This document shows positions 4,236-20,186 of a DNA stretch of 64,000 bases, piece by piece. The stretch is taken from positions 96,001 to 160,000 of IMG/VR virus record IMGVR_UViG_3300037484_000374. One strand, written 5' to 3'. The notes under the pieces are model-generated. The model saw only the letters and a program-made list of their open reading frames with translations, did no database searches and had not been told where the DNA came from. This stretch comes from a virus. How positions within the stretch are numbered: position 1 is the stretch's first letter; every line of letters begins with the position of its first letter. The position numbers were made by a program, and so were the translations under genes.

Positions 4236-4538
4236 TTGGTAAAGAAAACATCGCGAGAATGTGATAGGTGTGGGTGTAAAAGCAATATCAGACAATGCGT
4301 TGGGTGTGGCGATGATGTGTGTAGATCATGCAGGAGTTTCATAGATATCGATCCATGGACAGGGGTTAACAATGACGACTATCCAGAACCCATATGTAAA
4401 AAATGTGATGTAAAACTCATACCGTATGCTCACATGGCCGAGAGAATTTTAGATGATGCATTTGAAGAAACAGAAAGACTAAAACTTGAATGGCGAGAGA
4501 GTTGTAAGAAAGAATATGTCCAAGAAACACACATATGA
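4236..4538 (+). CDS. cysteine-rich zinc-finger protein
   Basis: four CxxC motifs. Confidence 0.55.
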   Translation: MVKKTSRECDRCGCKSNIRQCVGCGDDVCRSCRSFIDIDPWTGVNNDDYPEPICKKCDVKLIPYAHMAERILDDAFEETERLKLEWRESCKKEYVQETHI

Positions 4539-9272: not shown

Positions 9273-10319
9273 ATGAGTAAATGGGTAGACGAAGAAAAGT
9301 ATAATGATTTTGCAGGGAAAAAGGAACAGGAGAAAGAAAAACAAGAGTCGGGGGAAGGTCAGCAAGGGTTTGCTAAAAAATTCAGACCATCTATGGGTTC
9401 AGCAGAGAAACCAAAAGAATACGAAATTCGTTTTCTTCCTGATACAGATGGTAGATTTTATGAAGAATATTTCTATCATGGATTCTATGTTGGTGAGTCA
9501 TTCAAATTCATCGGTTGTGAAAAAAATAAGGGTCTTGACAAATATTGCCCGTGGTGTGGAATCACTCAGATTCTATATCAGGGATCGGCCAATGACAAAA
9601 AGAAAGCCGGTGATTACAAACGTAAAAATCGATATGTTGGTAACGTTTATGTTATTGATGATCCACGGGATGCAACTATCGAGAACCCAGAATACAAGAA
9701 TTCAAAATCAGTGCGGCTCTATGAATTCCCAGCAACAGTGGAAACAAAACTCAAAAAAGAAGTAACAGATAATAAAAATGGTTACGGGTTGGCAGTGTTT
9801 GATCCTGAAAATGGATACAGTATGTTGCTTTCAATTGGAGCCAAGAAAGCAGATGCTAATAAAAAAGTATGGCCAGATTATGACCAGACCATGTTTGCTC
9901 GTAGACAATCATCCATTGCCGATGGTGCTGAACTCGAAGAGATTATGGCTCAGCGTTATTCTTTAGGTGATTTTATTGAAGCCTTGATGATTACTCCCGA
10001 TGCCCATCGTGAACTTCTTAAATCAGAAATGGTTTATGAAGATGTCGAGAGAGACTTTGAGTTGAAGTTGGGCGGTTTTAATAAACTGACTACCAAAGAC
10101 GAACCAGCAAAGGAACCAGCAAAGGCTTTTGATCCAAATCAGAATGTACCACCAGTAGAAAGTAAACCAGACATGGGTGATGATACTCCTACATATGGAG
10201 CCCCACCACCAAAAACACCCTATCCGATCCAATATGGTGATGATATGGTTGTTGATAGCACAGGGTCATCGGCTCTTAGCGAGGATGATGCGCTGTTGGC
10301 CAGCTTGAGAGATTTATAA
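9273..10319 (+). CDS. single-stranded DNA-binding protein (T4 gp32-like)
   Basis: EIRFLPD, YHGF...C...CPWC Zn site, RYVGNVYVIDDP, VFDPENG, acidic C-terminus. Confidence 0.88.
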   Translation: MSKWVDEEKYNDFAGKKEQEKEKQESGEGQQGFAKKFRPSMGSAEKPKEYEIRFLPDTDGRFYEEYFYHGFYVGESFKFIGCEKNKGLDKYCPWCGITQILYQGSANDKKKAGDYKRKNRYVGNVYVIDDPRDATIENPEYKNSKSVRLYEFPATVETKLKKEVTDNKNGYGLAVFDPENGYSMLLSIGAKKADANKKVWPDYDQTMFARRQSSIADGAELEEIMAQRYSLGDFIEALMITPDAHRELLKSEMVYEDVERDFELKLGGFNKLTTKDEPAKEPAKAFDPNQNVPPVESKPDMGDDTPTYGAPPPKTPYPIQYGDDMVVDSTGSSALSEDDALLASLRDL

Positions 10320-10334
10320 TTTAAAATAGTAAAT

Positions 10335-10372
10335 TGGTAAAATGTGAGGTGGTAAAATGTGAGGTGGTAAAA
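10335..10372 (+). repeat. 15-bp tandem repeat TGGTAAAATGTGAGG x2.5
   Basis: direct reading. Confidence 0.9.
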
Positions 10373-10377
10373 AAAAA

Positions 10378-10413
10378 GGGGGGGGGATACATAGAAATAT
10401 GTTTCCCCCTTTT
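10378..10413 (+). terminator. intrinsic terminator after gp32
   Basis: G-run/ACATA-GAAA-TATGT/C-run hairpin plus T tract; related copy at 14243-14279. Confidence 0.75.
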
Positions 10414-10449
10414 ACATTGACAAACGATATAAAATATATAGGTGATTAA

Positions 10450-10794
10450 GTGAACAAGAAATCGTGTTTTGATTGTAAAAATGCTGTCGTGGTACAAGGA
10501 GATGCATCGGTTGGTATTGGTGGAATATGTATTGATAACTGCCACGCACAATTAACAGAAGACCAGATGGAAGCATGTGAAGACTGTGATTGGATAGAAT
10601 ATAAATGTCCAGCAAAATGTGGTCACTTTGAACATATTATGGTTGAAGTGTGTGCCGAGTGTAAAAAAGAAATGAATACCCCATTACATGAAGTAGAGTA
10701 TTATGGGGTTGAATATGTTGATATTCCGGTATGTTCGGTGGAATGTAAAATCAAGTTTGATGAGACAGTTGGAAAAAAAATTAAAGAATATTAA
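10450..10794 (+). CDS. cysteine-rich hypothetical protein
   Basis: 114-aa ORF behind a TTGACA promoter. Confidence 0.55.
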   Translation: MNKKSCFDCKNAVVVQGDASVGIGGICIDNCHAQLTEDQMEACEDCDWIEYKCPAKCGHFEHIMVEVCAECKKEMNTPLHEVEYYGVEYVDIPVCSVECKIKFDETVGKKIKEY

Positions 10795-10822
10795 AATAAT
10801 TTAGAAAAAATTTGAAAACTTA

Positions 10823-10830
10823 TATAAATA
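10823..10830 (+). promoter_or_regulatory. late promoter of tRNA operon 1 leader
   Basis: TATAAATA in GAAAACTTATATAAATA context shared with 14632. Confidence 0.75.
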
Positions 10831-10847
10831 CAAATAGAGAAACTATT

Positions 10848-10925
10848 ATGAAAAACACAAAAACGACCTCGACATCCAGTAAACCAAGTAACCCCAATCA
10901 TAGTGATTGGCCGGTGTACGTGTAG
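10848..10925 (+). CDS. leader peptide 1, MKNTKTTSTSSKPSNPNHSDWPVYV (putative attenuator peptide)
   Basis: 25-codon ORF between late promoter and terminator; stop codon lies in the antiterminator strand. Confidence 0.75.
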   Translation: MKNTKTTSTSSKPSNPNHSDWPVYV

Positions 10926-10988
10926 AATTCTCTAAAGTAATGTTGTAACCATAAAGGGGAGAATCTACAAAGGTTTTTCCCTTTTTTT
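10921..10988 (+). terminator. attenuator 1: antiterminator 10921-10933/10957-10968 versus terminator 10954-10988
   Basis: AAGGGGAGAATCT-ACAA-AGGTTTTTCCCTT + T run; TGTAGA(A)TTCTC pairs with GAGAATCTACA. Confidence 0.8.
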
Positions 10989-11001
10989 GTGGAAAAAATA
11001 T

Positions 11002-11076
11002 GGGGTGGTGGTTCAGTAGTAGAGCACAAGGTTGAAGTCCTTGGATAGCGGGGCGCGATTCTCCTCACCCCTGACC
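11002..11076 (+). tRNA. tRNA-Phe(GAA), atypical T-loop
   Basis: CAAGG-TTGAAGT-CCTTG anticodon arm, GGGGTGG/TCACCCC acceptor; T-loop CGCGATT. Confidence 0.75.
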
Positions 11077-11091
11077 AAAAATTGAATATAT

Positions 11092-11174
11092 AGATTGTAC
11101 CGCCATGGGGCAAACTGCTTTTGAACGGCATGGGTGGGTGAAACCACGGGGTTCGATTCCTCTACTTTCTGCCA
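11092..11174 (+). tRNA. tRNA-Ser(TGA), apparent 8/4 fold
   Basis: TGCT-TTTGAAC-GGCA arm, long variable arm, GGGG-TTCGATT-CCTC, G73-CCA. Confidence 0.75.
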
Positions 11175-11181
11175 AGAATAT

Positions 11182-11268
11182 AGTAGATTGACCGAGCGGC
11201 AAGGTATCTGGTTGCTAACCAGCAGTAAGGGTGACACCTCACAGGTTCGAATCCTGTATCTACTGCCA
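11182..11268 (+). tRNA. tRNA-Ser(GCT)
   Basis: AGTAGAT/ATCTACT, CTGG-TTGCTAA-CCAG, variable arm, GCCA. Confidence 0.9.
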
Positions 11269-11281
11269 GAAATAAATGTAT

Positions 11282-11355
11282 GGGGGTGTAACTTAGTGGC
11301 AAAGTAACTGGCTTTTAACCAGTAAACGGGGGTTCGATTCTCCTCACCCCCACCA
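11282..11355 (+). tRNA. tRNA-Lys(TTT)
   Basis: ACTGG-CTTTTAA-CCAGT, full cloverleaf, ACCA. Confidence 0.92.
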
Positions 11356-11426
11356 AAAATTGAATAGTAACACTAACTATACACGGTAATATTACCAATG
11401 TTACAATGCAAGGGGGGGGGGGTACC

Positions 11427-11645
11427 ATGAATAAGTTTTTTAGAAAACAGTTGGAAAAGTTGAAATCAGGTCGAGGTAAAAGTCTGACTTATAATAATAA
11501 ACATGGAAAGTTTAGAGTAAAATATTGTGATGGTGTAAAATCCAAACCAATGTTTTATGATATCGCAAAAAGATTCGCTGGCATATTCAATGGGAAAGTA
11601 TTTTACATTGAAGATGAGGATGAATATCAGCGGTATGCGTTATAA
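11427..11645 (+). CDS. hypothetical basic protein
   Basis: ATG after poly-G tract, between tRNAs. Confidence 0.5.
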   Translation: MNKFFRKQLEKLKSGRGKSLTYNNKHGKFRVKYCDGVKSKPMFYDIAKRFAGIFNGKVFYIEDEDEYQRYAL

Positions 11646-11658
11646 TTGAGAATGATAT

Positions 11659-11735
11659 ACTCCTATGGTGTTAATTGGTAAGCATGTGTGGCTGTTAACC
11701 ACAGGGCCAATGTTCGAGTCCTCGTAGGAGTGCCA
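11659..11735 (+). tRNA. tRNA-Asn(GTT), weakened T-stem
   Basis: TGTGG-CTGTTAA-CCACA, ACTCCTA/TAGGAGT, GCCA; two T-stem mismatches. Confidence 0.78.
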
Positions 11736-11743
11736 AAATTAAT

Positions 11744-11817
11744 GTATCTCTGGTGAAATGGTATCATGATTGGCTCCAACCCAATCGTTGTGGGTTCAAG
11801 TCCTACGAGGTACGCCA
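11744..11817 (+). tRNA. tRNA-Trp(CCA)
   Basis: ATTGG-CTCCAAC-CCAAT, GTATCTC/GAGGTAC, GCCA. Confidence 0.9.
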
Positions 11818-11829
11818 TTAAAAATATAC

Positions 11830-11903
11830 GCTAAGAGTGGTTCTGGGAACCGATTTCTCTTGTAAGGAAGTTTTTGGGGGTTCGACTCCTCCTCTTAGCT
11901 CCA
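11830..11903 (+). tRNA. tRNA-Thr(TGT), short D-loop
   Basis: GCTAAGA/TCTTAGC, loop CTTGTAA, D-arm GGTTC-TGG-GAACC, TCCA. Confidence 0.82.
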
Positions 11904-11972
11904 AGTTTACACACAACAAGTATTGTGGTATAATGATAGTAAATATAATAGGAGATGTAATGACAAGATTTT
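11903..11972 (+). repeat. 70-bp promoter-RBS-start module, identical inverted copy at 47968-48037
   Basis: TTTACA-N17-TATAAT, AGGAG, ATGACAAGATTTT; exact reverse complement at 47968-48037. Confidence 0.9.
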
Positions 11973-12421
11973 TCAAAAGCATTAAAAATTTAATCAGGTG
12001 GTTTCCAGTAATATGGAATGACAAAGATTGGGACAACGCTTATATCTATACGATATTACATAAGAAAATATCAAATATGGAAGATTTTTTCAGAACCGAT
12101 GCTATTATCAGTGAAGCAGACAGAGTTGCCGATGAGATCAACACCGTGGTTTTAGCTCTCCAAAGACTTGTCAAAGATGAGTATGAAGAAATAGCCTTTG
12201 AAGACCATGATAAGAAATGGGGTAAAATAGGAATGATAGAAGCACCATGGAAGATGCACAAGTTTAACTTCACCAGAAAAAATGTCACCACAGAAGAGGA
12301 TAAGAAAATAGAAAAGCAGGAAATGCTTGCTTGTTTTGATAGAGTAGAAGCATATAGACAGTGTGATATTGATCTTGTATGTGATACCATGAAAGAAAAA
12401 ATTCAGGAATGGTGGGATTGA
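11960..12421 (+). CDS. hypothetical phage protein
   Basis: MTRFFKSIKNLIRWFPVIWNDKDWD...EWWD; start after AGGAG. Confidence 0.7.
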   Translation: MTRFFKSIKNLIRWFPVIWNDKDWDNAYIYTILHKKISNMEDFFRTDAIISEADRVADEINTVVLALQRLVKDEYEEIAFEDHDKKWGKIGMIEAPWKMHKFNFTRKNVTTEEDKKIEKQEMLACFDRVEAYRQCDIDLVCDTMKEKIQEWWD

Positions 12422-12429
12422 AATAATAA

Positions 12430-12505
12430 CTGGGTGTAGCTGAGTTTGGTTTAGCACGGGCCTTGGGAGTCCGAGACGGAGGTTCAAATCCTCTCATCCA
12501 GACCA
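12430..12505 (+). tRNA. tRNA-Pro(TGG)
   Basis: CTGGGTG/CATCCAG, loop CTTGGGA, ACCA. Confidence 0.9.
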
Positions 12506-12517
12506 TAAATTAAAATT

Positions 12518-12727
12518 ATGAAAAAAGATGAATCATTAATACCAGAAGGTGCTTATTGTTACACAATAATAAAAACACCTTGCAAAGAAACAAATTGGTG
12601 CTTGAGAATAAAACCATGTCCTTATTGGAAATTAATTTATGATTTTCCAGAACAAATGAATGGATATTGTAAGTTCTTAAAAGAAGGTGATTGGACTCCA
12701 AAAGGTCTATCATTGTTATGTGAATAA
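12518..12727 (+). CDS. cysteine-rich hypothetical protein, possibly truncated
   Basis: IPEGAYCY...CPYW...GYC. Confidence 0.5.
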   Translation: MKKDESLIPEGAYCYTIIKTPCKETNWCLRIKPCPYWKLIYDFPEQMNGYCKFLKEGDWTPKGLSLLCE

Positions 12728-12745
12728 CCTTTGCGAGGTACGATA

Positions 12746-12919
12746 ATGAACTCCCTAAAAAAGTTAAAAATGAAAAAGGTCAAGAATGTCCTTTCCTCAA
12801 AAGAGGATGTGAATAAAGTGCGCACCTCGCTGGAGCAAAAAACCTCTCAAGCCTTTGATGCGTTTGCCAAGTCGAAGCAAAAAGACCAGGAAATGGCACA
12901 TTTGAAATATCTTGATTAA
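12746..12919 (+). CDS. small basic protein, GC-richer than flanks
   Basis: GAGG RBS, 57 aa. Confidence 0.5.
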   Translation: MNSLKKLKMKKVKNVLSSKEDVNKVRTSLEQKTSQAFDAFAKSKQKDQEMAHLKYLD

Positions 12920-12996
12920 AACTAACCTATTCTTGCTTATAAGCCCGGACATCTGAAATTAAGATTCTGGCTTTTTTTAATGCCATATTGAATGAT

Positions 12997-13047
12997 TGAG
13001 ACTCTGGCAAGTCACATAAGCGAGTTCGATTCTCGTCAACACCGCCA
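12997..13047 (+). pseudogene. 3' half of a tRNA (5' acceptor strand and D-arm missing)
   Basis: GCGAG-TTCGATT-CTCGT T-arm then CAACACC-G-CCA; no GGTGTTG upstream. Confidence 0.6.
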
Positions 13048-13349
13048 AGTTAAAAAAATATATGAATGATCTTATCAGAATAATACAAGAAAATCTTACA
13101 CATAGTCTACTAAAACCTGAATATAGAAAAATCAACGAAAATAGCCCAACGTATGGTCATTGTTATGCTGCCTCGGAATTTTTATGTAATTTAGAAGGAA
13201 AAGATTAAAGTTTCTTCCCCTATCATGGTAGAGATGAAAATTAGGTTGACATACCATAAACACTATGGTATAGTAGGTTATATAAGAATTTTAAATGGTC
13301 ATAAAGACCAAAAGGGGTCATAAAGACCAAAACTGTAAGGAGAAGATGT

Positions 13350-14204
13350 ATGAAAAATTTGTTAAGTGTATTGGTAGCATTGGTTGCATTTCTTGCTGTC
13401 AGTACAATCCCACAGGTATCTAGGGCATCAGATGACGTTACGATAATGTTTGAGATCGGGATCGGTATTGGTAAATCTGGAAAGGTTGCCAAGAAAGTTG
13501 ACGCTGATCCACGACTCTGTAAGAATCGTGACACTGGTCGGTTGATTTATTTTGGTGTTCGTGCAACATATGATGATGTTGAACTTCACCTTGCGCGTTG
13601 GCAGGGTGACGCTGACTGTTTGACATGTGAGCGTGACGCCTGGGCCTTGGGCCTTGGATATCAAATAACCAGTGATGATCATGGAACAATGGATTATGAC
13701 GATGTGTATACCACATGGACTCATGGACTTGCCTATACATGGGGTGAGGAAAAAAGATACGGGGGTGAGGAAAAAGAAAATACTAACTGGCGTTTACATG
13801 GTAACTTCCAGATTTTTAACCGCCTTGCTGTTGGGGTTCAGACAGAAGATGCAATGCTTGAAGTTGCCTTGAATCGTTATGGTTCATTTGATCCTAACCA
13901 CGGTGAAACATTCTTAACCGCTGGTCTTGGTCTTAACTTTTTGGAAGACACAACACATGTACCAATAGCCACACCTGAAAAAGAAATCGTTTACATCGAA
14001 GGGTCAGCGGGTAAAGACGGAACCGATGGTGAAGATGGTGAAGATGGTGAAGATGGTGAAGATGGTGAAGATGGTGAAGATGGTGAAGATGGTGAAGATG
14101 GTGAAGATGGTGAAGATGGTAACAAGGGTAATAATGGAAACGGTAACGGCTCAGAAGGTGCTTCCCCAGGTCAGGGTAATGGGGCCAACGATGATGAAAA
14201 TTAA
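13350..14204 (+). CDS. exported outer-membrane beta-barrel-like protein (PagL-like pattern) with collagen-like (GED)10 tail
   Basis: signal peptide, alternating beta strands, NFQIFNRLAVGV...PNHGETFL, Gly-X-Y repeat. Confidence 0.55.
   Translation: MKNLLSVLVALVAFLAVSTIPQVSRASDDVTIMFEIGIGIGKSGKVAKKVDADPRLCKNRDTGRLIYFGVRATYDDVELHLARWQGDADCLTCERDAWALGLGYQITSDDHGTMDYDDVYTTWTHGLAYTWGEEKRYGGEEKENTNWRLHGNFQIFNRLAVGVQTEDAMLEVALNRYGSFDPNHGETFLTAGLGLNFLEDTTHVPIATPEKEIVYIEGSAGKDGTDGEDGEDGEDGEDGEDGEDGEDGEDGEDGEDGNKGNNGNGNGSEGASPGQGNGANDDEN
14025..14120 (+). repeat. 9-bp tandem repeat GATGGTGAA x10.7
   Basis: perfect repeat encoding DGE. Confidence 0.95.
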
Positions 14205-14242
14205 TTTATAAAGTAAAATAGATACATAAGAAATCAAAAAAA

Positions 14243-14279
14243 AGGGGGGGGGGGCATAGAAATATGTTCCTCTTTTTTT
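14243..14279 (+). terminator. intrinsic terminator
   Basis: G-run/CATA-GAAA-TATG/TTCCTC + T tract. Confidence 0.75.
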
Positions 14280-14352
14280 GATTTAATCACTTGACTTTTT
14301 CTACAGATGTGATATAATACATTATAAGATAAATTCAGTTGAGGGATACACC

Positions 14353-14592
14353 ATGTTACATAAGAAAACAATGTTATTAAGAACCAAAGATAATACTACC
14401 ACTGTTAGAATAGGACTTTTCGGTAATAACTTCAACCCCGATGCTTGGTATCTCTTGAATAAAAGAAATGAGCCAGATGTGATTGTTAATACATCACCAG
14501 CAGGGGCCAGCAAGATCGTTCTCTCATACAAGACATTGGAAGGAAAGAGAGTCTATGATATCTATAAAGTTACATCAATAATAGATATTTGA
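14353..14592 (+). CDS. hypothetical protein
   Basis: behind TTGACT...TATAAT promoter and GAGG RBS. Confidence 0.55.
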   Translation: MLHKKTMLLRTKDNTTTVRIGLFGNNFNPDAWYLLNKRNEPDVIVNTSPAGASKIVLSYKTLEGKRVYDIYKVTSIIDI

Positions 14593-14631
14593 GAAAAAAT
14601 TAAAATAATTTGAGAAAAAATAGAAAACTTA

Positions 14632-14639
14632 TATAAATA
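14632..14639 (+). promoter_or_regulatory. late promoter of tRNA operon 2 leader
   Basis: TATAAATA followed by AGGAG. Confidence 0.75.
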
Positions 14640-14660
14640 GTAATAGGAGAATTAAATTCA

Positions 14661-14744
14661 ATGACACTCAGACAGACATATACTCTTTTAGAACAACGCA
14701 TACTTGTGATAGGTATTGTTGTGTATTGTGGAGAAATACCGTAA
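14661..14744 (+). CDS. leader peptide 2, MTLRQTYTLLEQRILVIGIVVYCGEIP (putative attenuator peptide)
   Basis: 27-codon ORF with AGGAG RBS; stop codon begins the antiterminator strand. Confidence 0.78.
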   Translation: MTLRQTYTLLEQRILVIGIVVYCGEIP

Positions 14745-14808
14745 GACTGGGGGATAAAATAACGATCACAGAACCCCTTGGTCTTAAAAAAGATTAGGGG
14801 GTTTTTTT
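14742..14808 (+). terminator. attenuator 2: antiterminator 14742-14753/14775-14786 versus terminator 14772-14808
   Basis: AACCCCTTGGTCTT-AAAA-AAGATTAGGGGGTT + T run; TAAGACTGGGGG pairs with CCCTTGGTCTTA. Confidence 0.82.
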
Positions 14809-14814
14809 ATTTGA

Positions 14815-14842
14815 TTGACACAGCTTAAAAATATGGTATAAT
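14815..14842 (+). promoter_or_regulatory. sigma70-type early promoter
   Basis: TTGACA-N16-TATAAT with TGG before -10. Confidence 0.7.
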
Positions 14843-14975
14843 AAAATATAGGTAAAAGATTAAACTTTATTTAACAGGCGAGTAGGATGTCAGTAACAAT
14901 CATAGTAGTAACAGTTGTTGTAGAAATAGCATTAGTATTGTTGTTTAAAGAGAAAAACTAGGTCTTTGTTCTATG

Positions 14976-15034
14976 TTGAGGTGTGTGGCTTGTAATCACA
15001 ATATATTGGGGCAGAGTATCCATCATCTCAACCA
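14976..15034 (+). pseudogene. D-armless tRNA-like element with TGT (Thr) anticodon loop
   Basis: TTGAGGTG/CATCTCAA-CCA, TGTGG-CTTGTAA-TCACA, degenerate T-arm. Confidence 0.5.
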
Positions 15035-15046
15035 AAGAAATAATGA

Positions 15047-15121
15047 AGGGGCATAACACAATGGTAGTGTACATGACTTTGAATCGTGATATGGTGGGTT
15101 CGATTCCCCCTGCCCCCGCCA
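15047..15121 (+). tRNA. tRNA-Gln(TTG)
   Basis: CATGA-CTTTGAA-TCGTG, unpaired 1:72, GCCA. Confidence 0.88.
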
Positions 15122-15160
15122 AAAATAAATGTGTATTTTTATTATAAATACTAATAATAT

Positions 15161-15237
15161 GGGAGAGTGGTGGAACTGGTATACATACTTCGCTTAGACC
15201 GAAGGTTTTAGGGGTTCGACTCCCCTCTCTCATACCA
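15161..15237 (+). tRNA. tRNA-Leu(TAG), short variable loop
   Basis: CTTCG-CTTAGAC-CGAAG, AGGGG-TTCGACT-CCCCT, ACCA. Confidence 0.82.
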
Positions 15238-15452
15238 GATTAATCATCGTGGAGATTAACCATGTGCATATTTAAATGTAGTTGTGGAAGCAGGAAAGTT
15301 AAGATAGAATCTTTTTGTAATTGTCATTATGTAATCTGTATTAATTGTAAAAATACTACAGAGAATTGTACGAGTCCAGAAATGGCAGTATTGAAATGGA
15401 ACCAAAAAATTGATAGTATAAGTCATAGTAAATAACCAAAAGGGAGATAGAT

Positions 15453-15842
15453 ATGAAGAAATTGTTTTTAGTATTGATAATATGTTTGAGTTTGTTGTTA
15501 CCGGTAGTTGCATCAGCAAACATGGAGTGTTTGGGTGAACCGCTCACGGATGGCGAAACCAATATAGTTAATATGGTTCACGAACTTCTTACAGCATACG
15601 GTGCTTATATAATACCACTTGCAAACGCAGTTAAACCGGAAGAGGTTTTGGCAATGACTCGACCCGATCTTCAAAGATTGGCAACCCAATTAACAGAAGA
15701 GGGTCTTTTACAAGTGGTTTCAGGTCAGATTGGTTATTACGAAGAGGGTGATGTTTGGATGTTCGTGATTGTCGAACCAACACTGGATAAGGAAGCGGCA
15801 TGTATTATCAGTGTAATGTTAAGAGAGAAGACAGCAAAATGA
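15453..15842 (+). CDS. exported hypothetical protein
   Basis: signal peptide MKKLFLVLIICLSLLLPVVASA. Confidence 0.65.
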   Translation: MKKLFLVLIICLSLLLPVVASANMECLGEPLTDGETNIVNMVHELLTAYGAYIIPLANAVKPEEVLAMTRPDLQRLATQLTEEGLLQVVSGQIGYYEEGDVWMFVIVEPTLDKEAACIISVMLREKTAK

Positions 15843-16234
15843 AAATTTTATTCAGAATATTGATTGTATTAATGTTTTTGTCAGTACCAATGAGCGCACA
15901 GGCAAAAAAAGAATGTACCAGTTGTGGAACGCTGGGTGTTACCGAGCAGATTACGGTAAATGATATTAACAAACAAGTCACTGAGTATTGTAGTGAAAAT
16001 ATGGGCAAGATGAAAACGTGGCCAGTACATAGGGCCATCAAAAAAGCCGAGAAGGGGATCAATTTGATCGTCACACGGTTTATCGACAAGGGGTACGTTG
16101 ATGGTATCACTGTCGAGTTTAAAGTCGTTAGCGATGAGCTATGGCCCGATAGTAAAAAAGTTTATGTAGAATTAACCATTGTTCCAAATAATAAGAAACC
16201 GTCAAGGTGTGTTATCACGGGAAGGTTACAATGA
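15839..16234 (+). CDS. exported hypothetical protein
   Basis: signal peptide MKILFRILIVLMFLSVPMSAQA; ATGA overlap. Confidence 0.65.
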   Translation: MKILFRILIVLMFLSVPMSAQAKKECTSCGTLGVTEQITVNDINKQVTEYCSENMGKMKTWPVHRAIKKAEKGINLIVTRFIDKGYVDGITVEFKVVSDELWPDSKKVYVELTIVPNNKKPSRCVITGRLQ

Positions 16235-16605
16235 TGAGAATTGTATATATACTCTTAGCACTGATGGTTTTTATGTCACCATCGTTTGAAAAACTTAGCG
16301 CATATTCTGGGATGAGTCAACAAACCAAGAACCAAGGAAGCAATACGAATGTTGTGGAGGTAAAAAAAGAAATTCGAGCATGGTGTGAATATTATTCAGA
16401 AAAAATACCATCAAGGTTAACGTTAATATTATTACAAAGTTCACTGGATGGTTATTGTAACTTTGCAGTTCGTGAGAGGATGGTATATTGGGTTGATAGT
16501 GTGGCATTTATTAAGAATAATGAGATTTGGGTAAAGACCATTATCATCCCTGTAAAGGGTGGAGAAAAAATAGAGTTTACGTTAAGACTCGTAACGAAGT
16601 GTTAA
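16231..16605 (+). CDS. exported hypothetical protein
   Basis: hydrophobic N-terminus; third of three similar-sized exported ORFs. Confidence 0.6.
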   Translation: MMRIVYILLALMVFMSPSFEKLSAYSGMSQQTKNQGSNTNVVEVKKEIRAWCEYYSEKIPSRLTLILLQSSLDGYCNFAVRERMVYWVDSVAFIKNNEIWVKTIIIPVKGGEKIEFTLRLVTKC

Positions 16606-16615
16606 TATAAAATAT

Positions 16616-16705
16616 GGAGAGTGCAAATAAGGCTGGATTGGTCTGGCGGTTGGCTGTAAACCAACCCCTGATAGACATGGGGTTCGAATCCTTCACTCCC
16701 CACCA
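16616..16705 (+). tRNA. tRNA-Tyr(GTA), apparent 8/4 fold
   Basis: GGTTGG-CTGTAAA-CCAACC, GGAGAGTG/CACTCCCC, 4-bp T-stem, ACCA. Confidence 0.78.
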
Positions 16706-17040
16706 AATAGGAACAAGTATGGATATTGAAAAATGTGAATGTGGAAGTAAGAATGTTATACCAGAACTTTTTTGCGGTAGATCATATATCTATTGTAAGG
16801 ATTGTGAAAAAACCACCGGCGAACATATATTACTCGATGAGGCCATAGGTGAATGGAATAAAATGTCCAGAGTGTGGTGATGAAGCAGTACAGGCATTAG
16901 TCAATGGAAGACCGGCCATGGTTTGTGAGAGTTGTATCAATGGAGTTATGACACTTACACAATGCCAATATTGTAATGAATATAGATACAAGAGACAACA
17001 AAAAGTTTGTGGCTGTAGGGAAACGATGAACGAATAATAC

Positions 17041-17421
17041 ATGTACCATCCAGACAATAGGTTTCTGGCAATGAGCTTACGAAACTCGTTTGATAGTCTC
17101 AACTCCTATATGGTACCCCAATTTAAAAAAGGATTCACAATGCCTATAAATTTGGAAATTGAAGATTATGAAAGTGTTTTAATTTTAGCAGATGATGAAA
17201 ATGGGAATTTAGTCTGGGAAGTATTGATGCCCGAAATTGATGAAAATGTAGACAGTGAAGGGGTTTCAATACCAACATTAATGTGCGCCGCTGTTGCAAC
17301 CAGAATGAAAGAAGATAAGGGGTTTGTTGATGATATGATAAACTGGTTTGATTGTTTCGTTTGTACTGAACCACCACCAGTTAAAGGTAGAATGAAAACA
17401 AGTTTGAGGAGAGTAAAATAA
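17041..17421 (+). CDS. hypothetical acidic protein (true start may be 17140)
   Basis: ORF; AAGGA precedes MPINLE. Confidence 0.55.
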   Translation: MYHPDNRFLAMSLRNSFDSLNSYMVPQFKKGFTMPINLEIEDYESVLILADDENGNLVWEVLMPEIDENVDSEGVSIPTLMCAAVATRMKEDKGFVDDMINWFDCFVCTEPPPVKGRMKTSLRRVK

Positions 17422-17427
17422 TTTTAT

Positions 17428-17502
17428 GCTCTGATAGTTTAACGGTAGAACGGACAACTTATAGTTGTTTAATGGCCGGTTCGACTCCACCTCAGAGCAC
17501 CA
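17428..17502 (+). tRNA. tRNA with TAT anticodon, Ile(UAU)
   Basis: GACAA-CTTATAG-TTGTT, GCTCTGA/TCAGAGC, ACCA; imperfect T-stem. Confidence 0.7.
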
Positions 17503-17624
17503 TTAAGGTTTACGGTATGATAAAAATATGTTTGAAATGTGATCAAAAAAAGGATATATCTGAATTTCATAAAAATTGCCATGCTGAATATCATCATTTG
17601 AAAAGATGTAAAAATTGAAAATAA

Positions 17625-17704
17625 GCGGGTATGATAAGCCAAGGGCATTGGTAAACTGGACACCAGCCAGTAAATAAGGGGTTCGACTCCCCCTTCCCGC
17701 TCCA
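17625..17704 (+). tRNA. tRNA-Gly(ACC), atypical anticodon loop
   Basis: GCGGG/CCCGC-T-CCA Gly-type acceptor, ACTGG-ACACCAG-CCAGT. Confidence 0.65.
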
Positions 17705-17716
17705 AAAGTTTTATAT

Positions 17717-17793
17717 AGTTCCGTAGCTTAATTGGCCAAGCATCTCTTTTACACGGAGAAGTCATAAGAGTTCGAGTCTCTTCGGAACCACCA
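17717..17793 (+). tRNA. tRNA-Val(TAC)
   Basis: TCTCT-TTTACAC-GGAGA, ACCA. Confidence 0.88.
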
Positions 17794-17803
17794 ATATTAA
17801 TAT

Positions 17804-17880
17804 AGCGGTGTAGCTCAGTGGTAGAGCCGTGGTCCTGATAAGGCACAGACTTAAAGTTCGATTCTTTTTCACCGCTACCA
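17804..17880 (+). tRNA. tRNA-Ile(GAT)
   Basis: AGCGGTG/CACCGCT, loop CTGATAA, ACCA. Confidence 0.82.
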
Positions 17881-17899
17881 TTAAATAAAGGATGTTAAT

Positions 17900-18172
17900 A
17901 TGGATGAATTTGTTAAAGTATTTTGTAGGGTTGTAAAGATGCATTGGTACACTTGGAAAGCAAAATATATTCTGGATTCTATTTTGGATGTATGTCGATG
18001 GATAATTTATATTGGTTTCCTTCCAAAGACATTAATTAACTGGACTGTTGGTTGTCATTTGGCAAACTCCAAAAGATTAAGGAAGGTTATTATAGAATCT
18101 GATTTTACAGACATCATAAAATTTGTAGATCGGGCTGATAGAGCCTATAGAAACCTTTACATCGAAGATTAA
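17900..18172 (+). CDS. hypothetical protein
   Basis: AAGGA RBS; resembles 18182-18445. Confidence 0.55.
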   Translation: MDEFVKVFCRVVKMHWYTWKAKYILDSILDVCRWIIYIGFLPKTLINWTVGCHLANSKRLRKVIIESDFTDIIKFVDRADRAYRNLYIED

Positions 18173-18181
18173 AGGAACAAA

Positions 18182-18445
18182 ATGAGTAAGCTAAAAATTG
18201 TTTTGAGGATAGTAAGATTGTACAGATGTACTTTTATAGGAAAGTATTACATACCGTTTTTAAATAAAATCATGGATTGTTTTGTGTTTCTTGGAATTAT
18301 CCACTACGGATTTCACAACCATATTGTTGATAAGATAAAGGAAAACACACAAAGAATAATTGAGATCGCCATAGAAGGTGGTAACCATGACCTTGCTGAT
18401 ATCGCTGATGATCAGAATAAAACAGCAGACGATTTATATATTTAA
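18182..18445 (+). CDS. hypothetical protein
   Basis: AAGGA RBS; possible paralog of 17900-18172. Confidence 0.55.
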   Translation: MSKLKIVLRIVRLYRCTFIGKYYIPFLNKIMDCFVFLGIIHYGFHNHIVDKIKENTQRIIEIAIEGGNHDLADIADDQNKTADDLYI

Positions 18446-18451
18446 ATGTGA

Positions 18452-18524
18452 CGCAAAGTAGACCGGTGTCTGGTGAAGTCTCATAAGCTCTCACGCTGGG
18501 GTTCAATTCCCCACTTTGCATCCA
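18452..18524 (+). tRNA. tRNA with CAT anticodon, initiator-like C1:A72 mismatch
   Basis: CGCAAAG/CTTTGCA, loop CTCATAA, TGGGG-TTCAATT-CCCCA, TCCA. Confidence 0.72.
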
Positions 18525-18535
18525 AATAATTAAAT

Positions 18536-18609
18536 GGGGATATAGTTTAGTGGCAGAACAGCTGTCTTTCTAACAGCCAGCAGGGGTTCGATTCCCCTTA
18601 TCCCTACCA
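18536..18609 (+). tRNA. tRNA with TTC anticodon (Glu), U at position 37
   Basis: GCTGT-CTTTCTA-ACAGC, GGGGATA/TATCCCT, ACCA; identity uncertain. Confidence 0.7.
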
Positions 18610-18680
18610 AAAAAATTTATTTTGTATTTTAAATATTTTTCCATAAAATCCATATAAATACCAATACAAGGAGAAATAAT

Positions 18681-19790
18681 ATGGATGCATATTGGATAAA
18701 CCCACAAGGAAAAATATTACAATTGACAGGGGGGACACATATAAAGATAGTTTTTGATAATCCAAATAAGTTTGGATTATCAAAACAATCAATTCAAAAA
18801 ATATATGATAAATATAACGAAAATTATGGAATAGAAGGAAAGGCGAGAGATGAAATTATCACAAAGATCATCCAACGAGGCTATGTTCGTATCAGAGAAT
18901 ACAAGAACAGGTGGAGCGTTCAGGTATGGAAGATCAATAATAAAGTAAATGATACATTATGGGTATGGGCAAAGACCGTATTACCCAAAGCAAGTGATAA
19001 ATTTGCTGATATAGACATCACAGAAATTGGTGGAAGGAAAGGTTTAATGAGAACATCTTTATCAAAATTGGCAAGTGGTGGAAGTATTTCAGAAGAAGAA
19101 AAAGAATTGGCAGAACGGCATGTTCGTTTTGTAGACTCGATTGATGATTTTGATGATTATGTTCCAGAGACAGAAGAAGAAATATCAGAAAAATATATAG
19201 TCAATGAATCATCATTGTCAAGGCTATGGAAACACAATACAGAACACGATTGTGGGGCTTTAACGGCATGGCGTAGAGCAGAGGGTTGTGGTGAGGGTAG
19301 ATTATATACACATAAGGAAAACCAACAACGTAATAAATCACTCAGAGCAAAATTAATGGCCATGGGCTATTCTGTAACTGTGATATCTGGAAAATACCCA
19401 GAGGGTGGTAAAACATCCAAGGAAGATAGTTATTTTGTCGTTGACATGGATGACGATGGACAGCTTGAAAAGGATTTACTGAAACTCGGAGAAATCTTTG
19501 AGCAGGATTCCATATTGTTTGTTCCAAAGGGTGCTGTTGAAAGAAAACAGAAAGCACTTTTAATAGGAACAAATCATTGTCCTAATGGATTCCCTGGGTA
19601 TGGTAAAAAACTTGAATTTGAAAAGGGCAAATTTGGTGTTAATAGCCCTATATATACATCATATGTTAATGGCCGACCATTTATATTTGAAACTCTTGAG
19701 ATGACAACACTCCACAGGCAAGGTAATGGTATGGGGGTCTGGGCAACATATCTCATAGCAAAAAAAGGTTGGCAAGACATAGACGTATAA
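18681..19790 (+). CDS. late phage protein of unknown function, two domains
   Basis: TATAAATA at 18653, AGGAG RBS, internal KYIVNE-SSLSRL boundary. Confidence 0.7.
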   Translation: MDAYWINPQGKILQLTGGTHIKIVFDNPNKFGLSKQSIQKIYDKYNENYGIEGKARDEIITKIIQRGYVRIREYKNRWSVQVWKINNKVNDTLWVWAKTVLPKASDKFADIDITEIGGRKGLMRTSLSKLASGGSISEEEKELAERHVRFVDSIDDFDDYVPETEEEISEKYIVNESSLSRLWKHNTEHDCGALTAWRRAEGCGEGRLYTHKENQQRNKSLRAKLMAMGYSVTVISGKYPEGGKTSKEDSYFVVDMDDDGQLEKDLLKLGEIFEQDSILFVPKGAVERKQKALLIGTNHCPNGFPGYGKKLEFEKGKFGVNSPIYTSYVNGRPFIFETLEMTTLHRQGNGMGVWATYLIAKKGWQDIDV

Positions 19791-19806
19791 AAATAAGAAC
19801 ACTTTG

Positions 19807-19855
19807 AAAACCCCTCTTTTTCTTTGATATCAAGGAATTGGGGTTTTTCTTTTTT
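19807..19855 (+). terminator. intrinsic terminator
   Basis: AAAACCCC...GGGGTTTT hairpin + T tract. Confidence 0.7.
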
Positions 19856-19904
19856 GTCGTTATTTTAAATTTTTTATATAAATACTATTAAGGGAGTAAC
19901 GAAA

Positions 19905-20186
19905 ATGGAGATTTATGAAAAATATCTTCTTGAAACCTTACCGGATGGCTGGACAAAAGACAGCGTTCAAAAGTTTGCCAAGACGATAGCGGCAAGCACT
20001 GACAAGGAAGGTTTCTTCAAGAAGTGAGTGGAGAGAATGTCACAGCATTTGGATGATGCTGAAATGGTTAACGGTCTTTGTGCCAGTATGCTTGATAAAG
20101 CTAAAGGCAGTACATATTGGAGAGGTTCACATAAGACAGCGGCGCAGGCAAAGAAGGATGTAGCGGCACACCAAAATGTAAAATGA
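19905..20186 (+). CDS. late 93-codon gene with in-frame TGA at codon 41 (selenoprotein candidate or pseudogene)
   Basis: TATAAATA 19877, GGAG RBS, frame open for 52 codons after TGA 20025-20027. Confidence 0.55.

What the first reader, a model, noticed from the sequence alone, without database searches (positions are those of the whole stretch)
10823..18609. Candidate new system: phage tRNA operons gated by leader-peptide attenuators whose codons list the downstream tRNAs
Seen: both tRNA clusters begin with GAAAACTTATATAAATA (late promoter), a 25-27 codon leader ORF, and an intrinsic terminator whose 5' strand can instead pair with a segment starting at or containing the leader stop codon. 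Leader 1 is K/N/T/S/P/W-rich and precedes Ser, Ser, Lys, Asn, Trp, Thr, Pro (and Phe) tRNAs. Leader 2 is L/Q/Y/I/G/V/E/T-rich and precedes Gln, Leu, Tyr, Ile, Gly, Val, Ile, Met, Glu tRNAs. Leader 1 has no L, Q, I, G, E or R; leader 2 has no K, N, S, W or F. The two hairpins differ in sequence but share this geometry. Established: this is the layout of ribosome-mediated attenuators (trpL, ilvL, pheM), and host anticodon nucleases (PrrC, VapC, PARIS AriB) deplete tRNAs during infection. Inference: a multi-input tRNA-shortage sensor in which stalling on any listed codon frees the antiterminator and switches on the matching phage tRNAs. I do not know of a described phage tRNA operon controlled this way, but could not search.
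Basis: partly seen in the sequence, partly recalled or inferred. Interest (0 to 1): 0.95.

Follow-up and report, generated by a model that had tools for sequence, protein, structure and literature searches.

The report
Leader-peptide attenuators gating phage tRNA arrays
Each tRNA gene cluster of this uncultured T4-like phage sits behind a late promoter, a tiny translated test gene written in the amino acids those tRNAs carry, and a switchable terminator; relatives keep the same design, so the phage probably makes more tRNA when ribosomes slow down, a control so far described only for amino-acid and synthetase genes.

Summary
Both tRNA clusters start with the same roughly 40-nt T4-type late promoter block, which has only these two copies in the 171-kb genome. 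Each block is followed by a 25- or 27-codon ORF and a strong intrinsic terminator. Each also has an antiterminator helix (-12 and -14 kcal/mol) whose 5' strand contains the leader stop codon.

I found seven more instances in metagenomic relatives (gp32 about 43-56% identical), all at the head of tRNA arrays. In all nine, the best upstream partner of the terminator 5' arm overlaps the stop codon, although the hairpin sequences differ and covary.

Leader content follows array content:
- Leaders before single large arrays hold 19-20 of the 20 amino acids in 36-39 residues. P is about 8e-4 per 36-residue window for all 20.
- Leaders before partial arrays are written in the amino acids of their own array: 19/24 and 19/26 here, and 20/27 in a relative.

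A detector for the module found nothing else in 2.8 Mb of other phage DNA.

The attenuator reading is therefore well supported by sequence, but nothing is shown experimentally. The codon-level match is weaker than the amino-acid match, and the link to anticodon nucleases is speculation. Earlier unchecked notes of this scan report the same design in other phage lineages. I found no paper describing it.

The parts
10790..10838 (+). Extended T4-type late promoter 1 (TATAAATA at 10823-10830, with a conserved upstream A/T-rich block)
   Evidence: one of only two copies in the genome; similar blocks lie ahead of the leaders of relatives. TATAAATA precedes many long ORFs at 15-45 nt.
10848..10925 (+). 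Leader ORF 1: 25 codons, TAG stop at 10923-10925; rich in K/N/T/S/P/W
   Evidence: 19/24 residues, and 16/24 codons under strict wobble, belong to cluster 1 tRNAs. P = 6e-4 against windows of real proteins.
10920..10934 (+). Antiterminator 1, 5' strand; contains the stop codon
   Evidence: It is the best upstream partner of the terminator 5' arm (-14 kcal/mol duplex, shuffle P = 0.02). All three stop-codon bases are paired.
10953..10991 (+). Intrinsic terminator 1: 14-bp stem, ACAA loop, T run. Its 5' arm and loop (about 10956-10969) form the 3' strand of the antiterminator
11002..12505 (+). tRNA cluster 1: Phe(GAA), Ser(TGA), Ser(GCT), Lys, Asn, Trp, Thr, Pro, with two ORFs in between. The first tRNA starts about 11 nt after the T run, with no promoter in between
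14598..14647 (+). Extended late promoter 2 (TATAAATA at 14632-14639)
14661..14744 (+). Leader ORF 2: 27 codons, AGGAG Shine-Dalgarno sequence 11 nt upstream, TAA stop at 14742-14744; rich in L/I/V/Q/E/Y/G
   Evidence: 19/26 residues belong to cluster 2 tRNAs (P = 3e-3). 14/26 codons match under strict wobble (P = 0.03).
14741..14754 (+). Antiterminator 2, 5' strand; starts 1 nt before the stop codon. 12 contiguous pairs with 14774-14787
   Evidence: It has the strongest upstream competitor of all 61 terminator-like sites in the genome (-15.7 to -17.6 kcal/mol).
14770..14808 (+). Intrinsic terminator 2: 16-bp stem, 4-nt loop, T7
14815..14842 (+). Consensus sigma-70 promoter (12/12, with an extended -10) between terminator 2 and the array. 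It is presumably the early, attenuator-independent entry; relatives have one in the same place
   Evidence: for the relatives
15047..18609 (+). tRNA cluster 2: Gln, Leu(TAG), Tyr(GTA), Ile(TAT), Gly(ACC), Val, Ile(GAT), Met, Glu, with ORFs in between

Best explanation
I read these as two ribosome-dependent transcription attenuators of the trp/ilv type. They gate read-through from a T4-type late promoter, and from any upstream transcription, into the phage's tRNA genes.

Proposed mechanism:
1. RNA polymerase starts at the late promoter and transcribes a short leader, which is translated at once.
2. If the ribosome runs smoothly to the stop codon, it sits on the 5' strand of the antiterminator, because that strand contains the stop codon. 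The terminator hairpin 30 nt downstream then forms, and transcription ends before the tRNAs.
3. If the ribosome is held up earlier, at any codon whose charged tRNA is scarce, the stop-codon segment is free. It pairs with the terminator 5' arm, the terminator cannot form, and the tRNA array is transcribed.

Each leader is written mainly in the amino acids whose tRNAs lie behind it. The new tRNAs would then relieve the stall, so this is negative feedback on the phage's own tRNA supply during the late, translation-heavy phase.

Shown by sequence: the parts, their geometry, their conservation and covariation in relatives, and the match between leader and array.

Inferred: translation of the leaders, the direction of the switch, and the physiological signal.
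For: 1. Parts and geometry in the window.

2. Specificity. In this genome, the only late promoters followed by a 20-45-codon ORF and a terminator are these two. A detector for the full module found only true instances among 756 TATAAATA sites in 2.8 Mb of fetched phage DNA. A promoter-free version gave 7 weak hits in 2 Mb, all with the wrong spacing.

3. Conservation. There are seven further instances in metagenomic relatives, each at the head of a tRNA array. In 9 of 9, the best upstream partner of the terminator 5' arm overlaps the stop codon, and the spacing from stop to terminator is 30-39 nt. The third base of the stop codon pairs A:U in 5 instances and G:C in 4.

4. Covariation in five alignable instances. 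The terminator is 96.6% paired, with 7 of 12 pairs showing compensatory changes. The antiterminator is 91.4% paired against 36-46% in the slid controls, with 3 compensatory pairs.

5. The ORF is conserved as an ORF. Only 3% of stop codons in this genome close an ATG ORF of 25-45 codons, yet the stop inside the antiterminator does so in all 8 complete instances.

6. Leader content.
- Leaders before single large arrays hold 20, 19, 20, 20 and 19 different amino acids in 36-39 residues.
- The null from this phage's own proteins is P(all 20) = 8e-4 and P(19 or more) = 1.6% per 36-residue window.
- For partial arrays, 19/24, 19/26 and 20/27 residues fall in the leader's own array set, with P = 6e-4, 3e-3 and 1e-3.
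- The observed split of amino acids between the two window clusters is the best of 6435 possible splits, tied with one other.
- With hydrophobic residues left out, the association remains at P = 5e-4.
Against: - There are no expression or functional data.
- The codon-level match is weaker than the amino-acid match. In leader 2, the Leu codons CTC, CTT and TTA are not read by tRNA-Leu(UAG) under strict wobble; 14/26 codons match, P = 0.03.
- Cluster 1 has a Phe tRNA, but leader 1 has no Phe codon.
- Leaders of large arrays include amino acids for which no tRNA was detected in the array.
- No significant region-1 (anti-antiterminator) helix exists in the window's leaders. Untranslated transcripts would therefore read through by default, unlike trp.
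- A sigma-70 promoter behind terminator 2 bypasses the switch for early transcription.
- The Shine-Dalgarno sequence of leader 1 is weak.
- One relative (L119) has its tRNA array behind gp32 without the module.
- Leader 1 and the L126 leader, and their arrays, may be homologous, so they are not fully independent.
- The hypothesis was formed after seeing the data.
Confidence: 0.7

Rival explanations
1. This is a generic sensor of translation status, not a list of tRNAs. The leader, antiterminator and terminator switch is real, but it only reports whether ribosomes keep pace with RNA polymerase (overall elongation capacity, or ribosome availability late in infection). The leader's composition matters only in that it samples many codons.
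For: - Leaders before large arrays contain 19-20 amino acids, including some with no detected tRNA in the array.
- The match under strict wobble is modest for leader 2.
- The fraction of residues in the array set is at background for the large arrays.
Against: - Three partial arrays have leaders strongly skewed to their own amino acids. The two window leaders are complementary, and the observed split is the optimum of 6435.
- K, I and D differ between leader 1 and the L126 leader in step with the presence of Lys, Ile and Asp tRNAs.
- In L142, the residue counts of the leader correlate with tRNA gene copy number (r = 0.61, P = 0.003).
Confidence: 0.15
2. These are ordinary small late genes followed by ordinary terminators. 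The short ORFs encode micro-proteins (leader 2 looks membrane-like), the hairpins simply end late or upstream transcripts, and the tRNAs are made from other promoters. The match to the tRNAs is coincidence.
For: - A consensus sigma-70 promoter follows terminator 2.
- Leader peptides of some relatives share motifs.
- The hypothesis was formed after seeing the data.
Against: - Cluster 1 has no promoter between the terminator and the first tRNA.
- The stop codon lies inside a helix competing with the terminator in 9 of 9 instances, with covariation.
- Holding all 20 amino acids is very unlikely for real proteins.
- Rare residues (W, C) sit at different positions in different leaders, which suggests selection for their presence and not for a fold.
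- The composition tests.
Confidence: 0.07
3. These are recombination scars of mobile promoter/stem-loop cassettes, such as the PeSL elements of T4-type phages (recalled from Arbiol et al. 2010, not read here). On this view the partial copy of the terminator arm at the stop codon is left over from cassette shuffling and has no regulatory role.
For: - The tRNA region is an insertion relative to relatives, in which gp32 is followed directly by the homologue of ORF 18681-19790.
- The promoter block is duplicated within the genome.
Against: - The copy of the arm is kept in register with an in-frame stop codon in lineages whose hairpin sequences differ completely.
- Compensatory changes maintain both helices.
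- Scars would not explain the leader composition.
Confidence: 0.04

Closest known systems
Leader-peptide transcription attenuators of enterobacterial amino-acid operons (trpL, hisL, leuL, pheL; textbook knowledge)
   Same: A promoter-proximal short ORF, an intrinsic terminator and a mutually exclusive antiterminator. The stop codon is placed so that a terminating ribosome masks the antiterminator strand. The regulatory codons relate to the product of the operon.
   Different: - The regulated genes are tRNAs, not biosynthetic enzymes.
- The element is viral and driven by a T4-type late promoter.
- The leader samples many or all amino acids, with no run of one codon.
- The window's leaders have no significant 1:2 helix.
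Multivalent attenuators ilvGMEDA (Ile/Leu/Val) and thr (Thr/Ile)
   Same: One leader integrates shortage of several different aminoacyl-tRNAs.
   Different: Those sense 2-3 amino acids. Here each leader carries 7-8, and in relatives 19-20.
pheM leader of the pheST (phenylalanyl-tRNA synthetase) operon
   Same: Leader-peptide attenuation applied to a gene of the translation apparatus, giving feedback on decoding capacity.
   Different: It has a single amino-acid input and a protein product, and it is host-encoded.
T-box riboswitches
   Same: They sense the state of tRNA and control an intrinsic terminator through an antiterminator.
   Different: T-boxes bind uncharged tRNA directly and need no ORF. 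No T-box or other Rfam cis-regulatory family matched 10000-20000.
Same design noted earlier in this scan in other phage lineages (phiCbK-like Caulobacter phages, jumbo and Bacteroidota phages; unchecked AI notes)
   Same: A promoter, a mini-ORF written in the array's amino acids and a terminator ahead of tRNA blocks. In phiCbK, I confirmed an annotated 45-aa CDS and an annotated terminator directly before a tRNA block; 23/44 of its residues are S/L/P/K.
   Different: These are unrelated phage families with other promoter types. Here the stop codon is always embedded in the antiterminator, and leaders before single arrays hold nearly all 20 amino acids.

Membership tests
Ribosome-mediated (leader-peptide) transcription attenuator | Short ORF with a start codon and ribosome-binding site close behind the promoter | tested here: met
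   The ORFs are 10848-10925 and 14661-14744, starting 17 and 21 nt after TATAAATA like real late genes. The Shine-Dalgarno sequence is good for leader 2 and weak for leader 1. The ORF is conserved in all 8 complete instances, although only 3% of stop codons close such an ORF.
Ribosome-mediated (leader-peptide) transcription attenuator | Intrinsic terminator between the leader and the regulated genes | tested here: met
   It covaries in relatives.
Ribosome-mediated (leader-peptide) transcription attenuator | Antiterminator helix mutually exclusive with the terminator, placed so that a ribosome at the stop codon blocks it | tested here: met
   The stop codon lies inside the 5' strand in 9 of 9 instances.
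Ribosome-mediated (leader-peptide) transcription attenuator | Regulatory codons that correspond to the function of the regulated genes | tested here: met
   Met at the amino-acid level: 19/24, 19/26 and 20/27 residues. Under strict wobble, 16/24 and 14/26 codons match.
Ribosome-mediated (leader-peptide) transcription attenuator | Upstream 1:2 pause or anti-antiterminator hairpin (trp-type three-helix design) | tested here: inconclusive
   Not significant in the window's leaders. A copy of the terminator 5' arm near codons 2-7 is significant only in L141 and L126.
Ribosome-mediated (leader-peptide) transcription attenuator | Read-through responds to translation of the leader and to aminoacyl-tRNA supply | not testable with these tools
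   No RNA data could be obtained, and there is no cultured host.
T-box riboswitch | Specifier loop and T-box sequence that bind tRNA (Rfam model) | tested here: not met
   No such match in 10000-20000 at E up to 0.1.
T4-type late promoter | TATAAATA box 15-45 nt upstream of late gene starts in a phage of the T4 lineage | tested here: met
   The gp32 family is present (PF08804). The motif precedes many long ORFs. The late sigma factor (gp55) was not looked for.

The most novel reading that the evidence does not exclude
Leader-peptide attenuators whose leaders roster the amino acids of the tRNA genes behind them, up to leaders that hold all 20 amino acids, are a general way for large phages to regulate tRNA supply. 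They would have evolved or spread across unrelated lineages (T4-like here; phiCbK-like, jumbo and Bacteroidota phages in earlier notes). With them a phage would measure decoding capacity codon by codon late in infection and top up exactly the tRNAs that host decay or host tRNA-cleaving defences have depleted.
Probability: 0.45. Interest if true: 0.95.

Novelty: new variant of a known kind. Interest (0 to 1): 0.87.

Why it matters
How phages time and dose their own tRNA genes is largely unknown, and tRNA genes are not known to be controlled by leader-peptide attenuation in any organism.

If this is true, it extends a textbook mechanism to a new class of target and to viruses. It also shows a multi-input sensor of up to 20 inputs built from one short ORF. 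It gives a concrete, testable link between phage tRNA arrays and translational stress or tRNA-targeting host defences.

It also gives annotators a recognisable signature: a short ORF holding nearly all 20 amino acids, or only the array's amino acids, whose stop codon lies inside an antiterminator. The phiCbK/Caulobacter system may offer a cultured model.

Tried and rejected
- Megablast of 10500-15400 against GenBank phages found nothing. tblastn with gp32 and with the 104-aa array-head protein found only remote cyanophage and Rhodobacter phage hits, so there is no cultured relative.
- A single-protein gp32 scan of IMG/VR found nothing. An alignment was needed.
- Exact-pattern scans with the 17-mer, and with the sigma-70 block that follows the terminators, gave only chance AT-rich matches. 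I used these as negative controls.
- The longer promoter pattern had no match outside the known relatives.
- The contig carrying an identical gp32 is only 1.1 kb long.
- A trp-like region 1 was sought by duplex energy and by shared words. It is not significant for the window's leaders.
- MAFFT could not put all nine switches in one register, so the formal pair counts use five instances.
- The distant 104-aa homologues (26-35% identical, L161-L172) have no module upstream.
- Three literature searches found no description of such control of tRNA genes.

Full report
**What the window is.**
The window is bases 96001-160000 of a 170,951-bp IMG/VR virus record. The record has 35% G+C and encodes a gp32-family single-strand DNA-binding protein at 9273-10319 (PF08804). 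The T4 late-promoter box TATAAATA sits 15-45 nt before many long ORFs. It is a distant, uncultured T4-like phage. GenBank phages give only 25-30% identity for gp32. The nearest metagenomic gp32 proteins are 43-56% identical.

**Check of the observation.**
- *Promoter.* The 17-mer ending in TATAAATA occurs exactly twice in the genome, at 10814-10830 and 14623-14639. The two copies share a longer block of about 40-50 nt.
- *Leaders.* Each block is followed by an ATG ORF: 10848-10925 (25 codons) and 14661-14744 (27 codons).
- *Terminators.* A strong intrinsic terminator follows at 10953-10984 and at 14770-14805. These are the two best in 10300-19000.
- *Antiterminators.* When the transcripts are folded only up to the terminator loop, both form an alternative helix of -12.0 and -14.4 kcal/mol. 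Its 5' strand begins 2 nt before, or exactly at, the stop codon.
- *Genome-wide control.* Among 61 terminator-like sites in the genome, terminator 2 has the strongest upstream competitor. Among the 10 strong terminators, the two leader terminators rank first and second.
- *tRNAs.* Cluster 1 holds Phe, Ser(TGA), Ser(GCT), Lys, Asn, Trp, Thr and Pro. Cluster 2 holds Gln, Leu(TAG), Tyr, Ile(TAT), Gly(ACC), Val, Ile(GAT), Met and Glu. Five of these 17 needed Rfam, relaxed ARAGORN settings or reading by eye.
- *Specificity in this genome.* The only late promoters followed by a 20-45-codon ORF and a nearby T run are these two.

**Match between leader and array in the window.**
- After the initiator Met, 19/24 residues of leader 1 and 19/26 of leader 2 are amino acids of their own cluster. 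Only 3 and 4 residues belong to the other cluster.
- Every informative amino acid lies in the cluster whose leader uses it more. The observed split is the optimum of all 6435 splits, tied with one other.
- Against 24- and 26-residue windows of this phage's own long ORFs, P = 6e-4 and 3e-3. Against random small ORFs, the values are 0.24% and 1.8%.
- With hydrophobic residues left out, the association is still P = 5e-4.
- Under strict wobble, 16/24 codons match for leader 1 (P = 3e-4) but only 14/26 for leader 2 (P = 0.03). The match is therefore clearer for amino acids than for anticodons.

**Relatives.**
In most gp32 relatives, gp32 is followed directly by a homologue of window ORF 18681-19790. 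The region 10320-18680 is therefore an inserted, plastic region.

Their tRNA arrays lie elsewhere. At the head of those arrays I found the same module again:
- L141 (a 235-kb contig) and L142 (163 kb);
- L126;
- L153;
- L156, L157 and the 5'-truncated L158.

Each has a late promoter with a similar upstream block and a Shine-Dalgarno sequence. An ORF of 28-39 codons and a terminator 34-39 nt after the stop follow. Usually a sigma-70-like promoter comes next, and then the tRNAs.

In all nine instances, the best partner of the terminator 5' arm within about 105 upstream nt overlaps the stop codon, and the stop-codon bases are paired. The third stop base pairs A:U five times and G:C four times.

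The hairpin sequences differ between lineages. On the five instances that can be aligned:

| Helix | Cells paired | Pairs with compensatory changes | Slid controls |
|---|---|---|---|
| Terminator | 96.6% | 7 of 12 | 33-53% paired |
| Antiterminator | 91.4% | 3 of 12 | 36-46% paired |

Only 3% of stop codons in this genome close an ATG ORF of 25-45 codons. The stop inside the antiterminator does so in all eight complete cases.

A detector for the whole module found only these instances among 756 TATAAATA sites in 2.8 Mb of fetched phage DNA. A version without the promoter requirement gave 7 weak hits in 2 Mb of unrelated viral DNA, all with a stop-terminator spacing of 45-95 nt.

**Leader content in relatives.**
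- Where one leader heads one large array, the leader holds nearly every amino acid: 20, 19, 20, 20 and 19 different ones in 36-39 residues.
- In 36-residue windows of this phage's proteins, P(all 20) = 8e-4 and P(19 or more) = 1.6%.
- The leaders are only 10-41% identical to the reference leader (L153) in the alignment. The rare residues W and C sit at different positions, which suggests selection for presence and not for position.
- L126 has a partial array: Asn, Pro, Ile, Thr, Asp, Ser, Trp and Ser. Its leader has 20/27 residues in that set (P = 1e-3).
- Compared with window leader 1, the L126 leader gains I and D and loses K, in step with its array.
- In L142, leader residue counts correlate with tRNA gene copy number (r = 0.61, P = 0.003).
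- For the large arrays, the fraction of leader residues in the array set is at background, as expected when nearly all amino acids are covered.

**Mechanism.**
The anatomy is that of a leader-peptide attenuator.
- A ribosome that reaches the stop codon covers the antiterminator 5' strand. The terminator then forms, and transcription stops before the tRNAs.
- A ribosome stalled earlier leaves that strand free to pair with the terminator 5' arm, and the array is transcribed.

The output is the very tRNAs that decode most of the leader, so the loop is homeostatic.

The sigma-70 promoter behind terminator 2, and the equivalent promoters in relatives, suggest constitutive early expression plus conditional late expression. 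Cluster 1 has no such bypass. All transcription into Phe...Thr must therefore pass attenuator 1.

A trp-like region 1 is not supported for the window's leaders and is significant only in L141 and L126. Without translation, the default here would be read-through.

All functional steps are inferred. No RNA data could be obtained.

**Comparison with what is known.**
The module works like trpL, hisL and the multivalent ilv and thr leaders, and like pheM-pheST in controlling a gene of the translation apparatus. It differs from them in four ways:
- the target is tRNA genes;
- the owner is a virus, and the promoter is a T4-type late promoter;
- the number of inputs is 7-8 here and up to 20 in relatives;
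- the stop codon is always embedded in the antiterminator.

It is not a T-box. Three full-text searches found no description of tRNA genes under leader-peptide attenuation.

Earlier unchecked notes of this scan report the same idea in other phage lineages. I checked one of them in part. phiCbK has an annotated 45-residue CDS and an annotated terminator directly before the tRNA block that begins with Pro, Pro and ends with Leu, Leu, Leu, Ser, Ser. Of its 44 residues after the initiator, 23 are S, L, P or K.

**Verdict.**
The attenuator interpretation is supported by every sequence-level test that was available. It is not proven functionally, and the role of anticodon nucleases remains a guess. 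My confidence in the attenuator reading is about 0.7. I class it as a new variant of a known kind, and I rate the interest as high.

Noticed in passing
L122 about 11000-11045; likewise L120, L123, L124, L129, L138 just after gp32: In relatives, the terminator hairpin after gp32 carries the late promoter box TATAAATA in its loop. The next gene is the homologue of window ORF 18681-19790. This compact terminator/late-promoter unit recurs across contigs.
   Followed up: partly
window 10320-18680: The whole tRNA region, with its many small ORFs, is an insertion between gp32 and ORF 18681-19790 when compared with relatives. It looks like a hyperplastic region.
   Followed up: partly
L142 7822-8251; L141 16856-17213: A GOLLD RNA (Rfam, 177 bits) lies inside the tRNA array of one relative. 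A tmRNA gene lies at the end of the array of another. Further tmRNAs are in L133-L137.
   Followed up: no
window 14887-14961: A 24-codon hydrophobic ORF lies between the sigma-70 promoter and tRNA-Gln. 15 of its 23 residues are V, I, L or E, which are amino acids of cluster 2. No terminator follows it. It could be a second, different kind of leader, or a small membrane peptide.
   Followed up: partly
L141 2164-2478 and 2454-3437; L142 2763-3077; L153 6001-6303: A conserved 104-aa Cys-rich protein is the first gene behind the leader in several relatives. In L141 it is followed by a 327-aa ORF with a ligase-like K-x-D-G motif (read by eye), possibly an RNA ligase for tRNA repair.
   Followed up: no
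window 17628-17703, 11083-11174, 16615-16704: Several tRNAs are non-canonical. Gly has anticodon ACC with C at position 33. Ser(TGA) and Tyr have weak acceptor stems and are missed at default settings.
   Followed up: partly
window 13350-14204: A 284-aa ORF has a signal-peptide-like start and a long acidic G-E-D repeat tail.
   Followed up: no
L288 (phiCbK NC_019405) 2541-2770 and 4340-4503: The cultured Caulobacter phage phiCbK has short ORFs and annotated rho-independent terminators directly before two of its tRNA blocks. It may serve as an experimental model for the same kind of control.
   Followed up: partly
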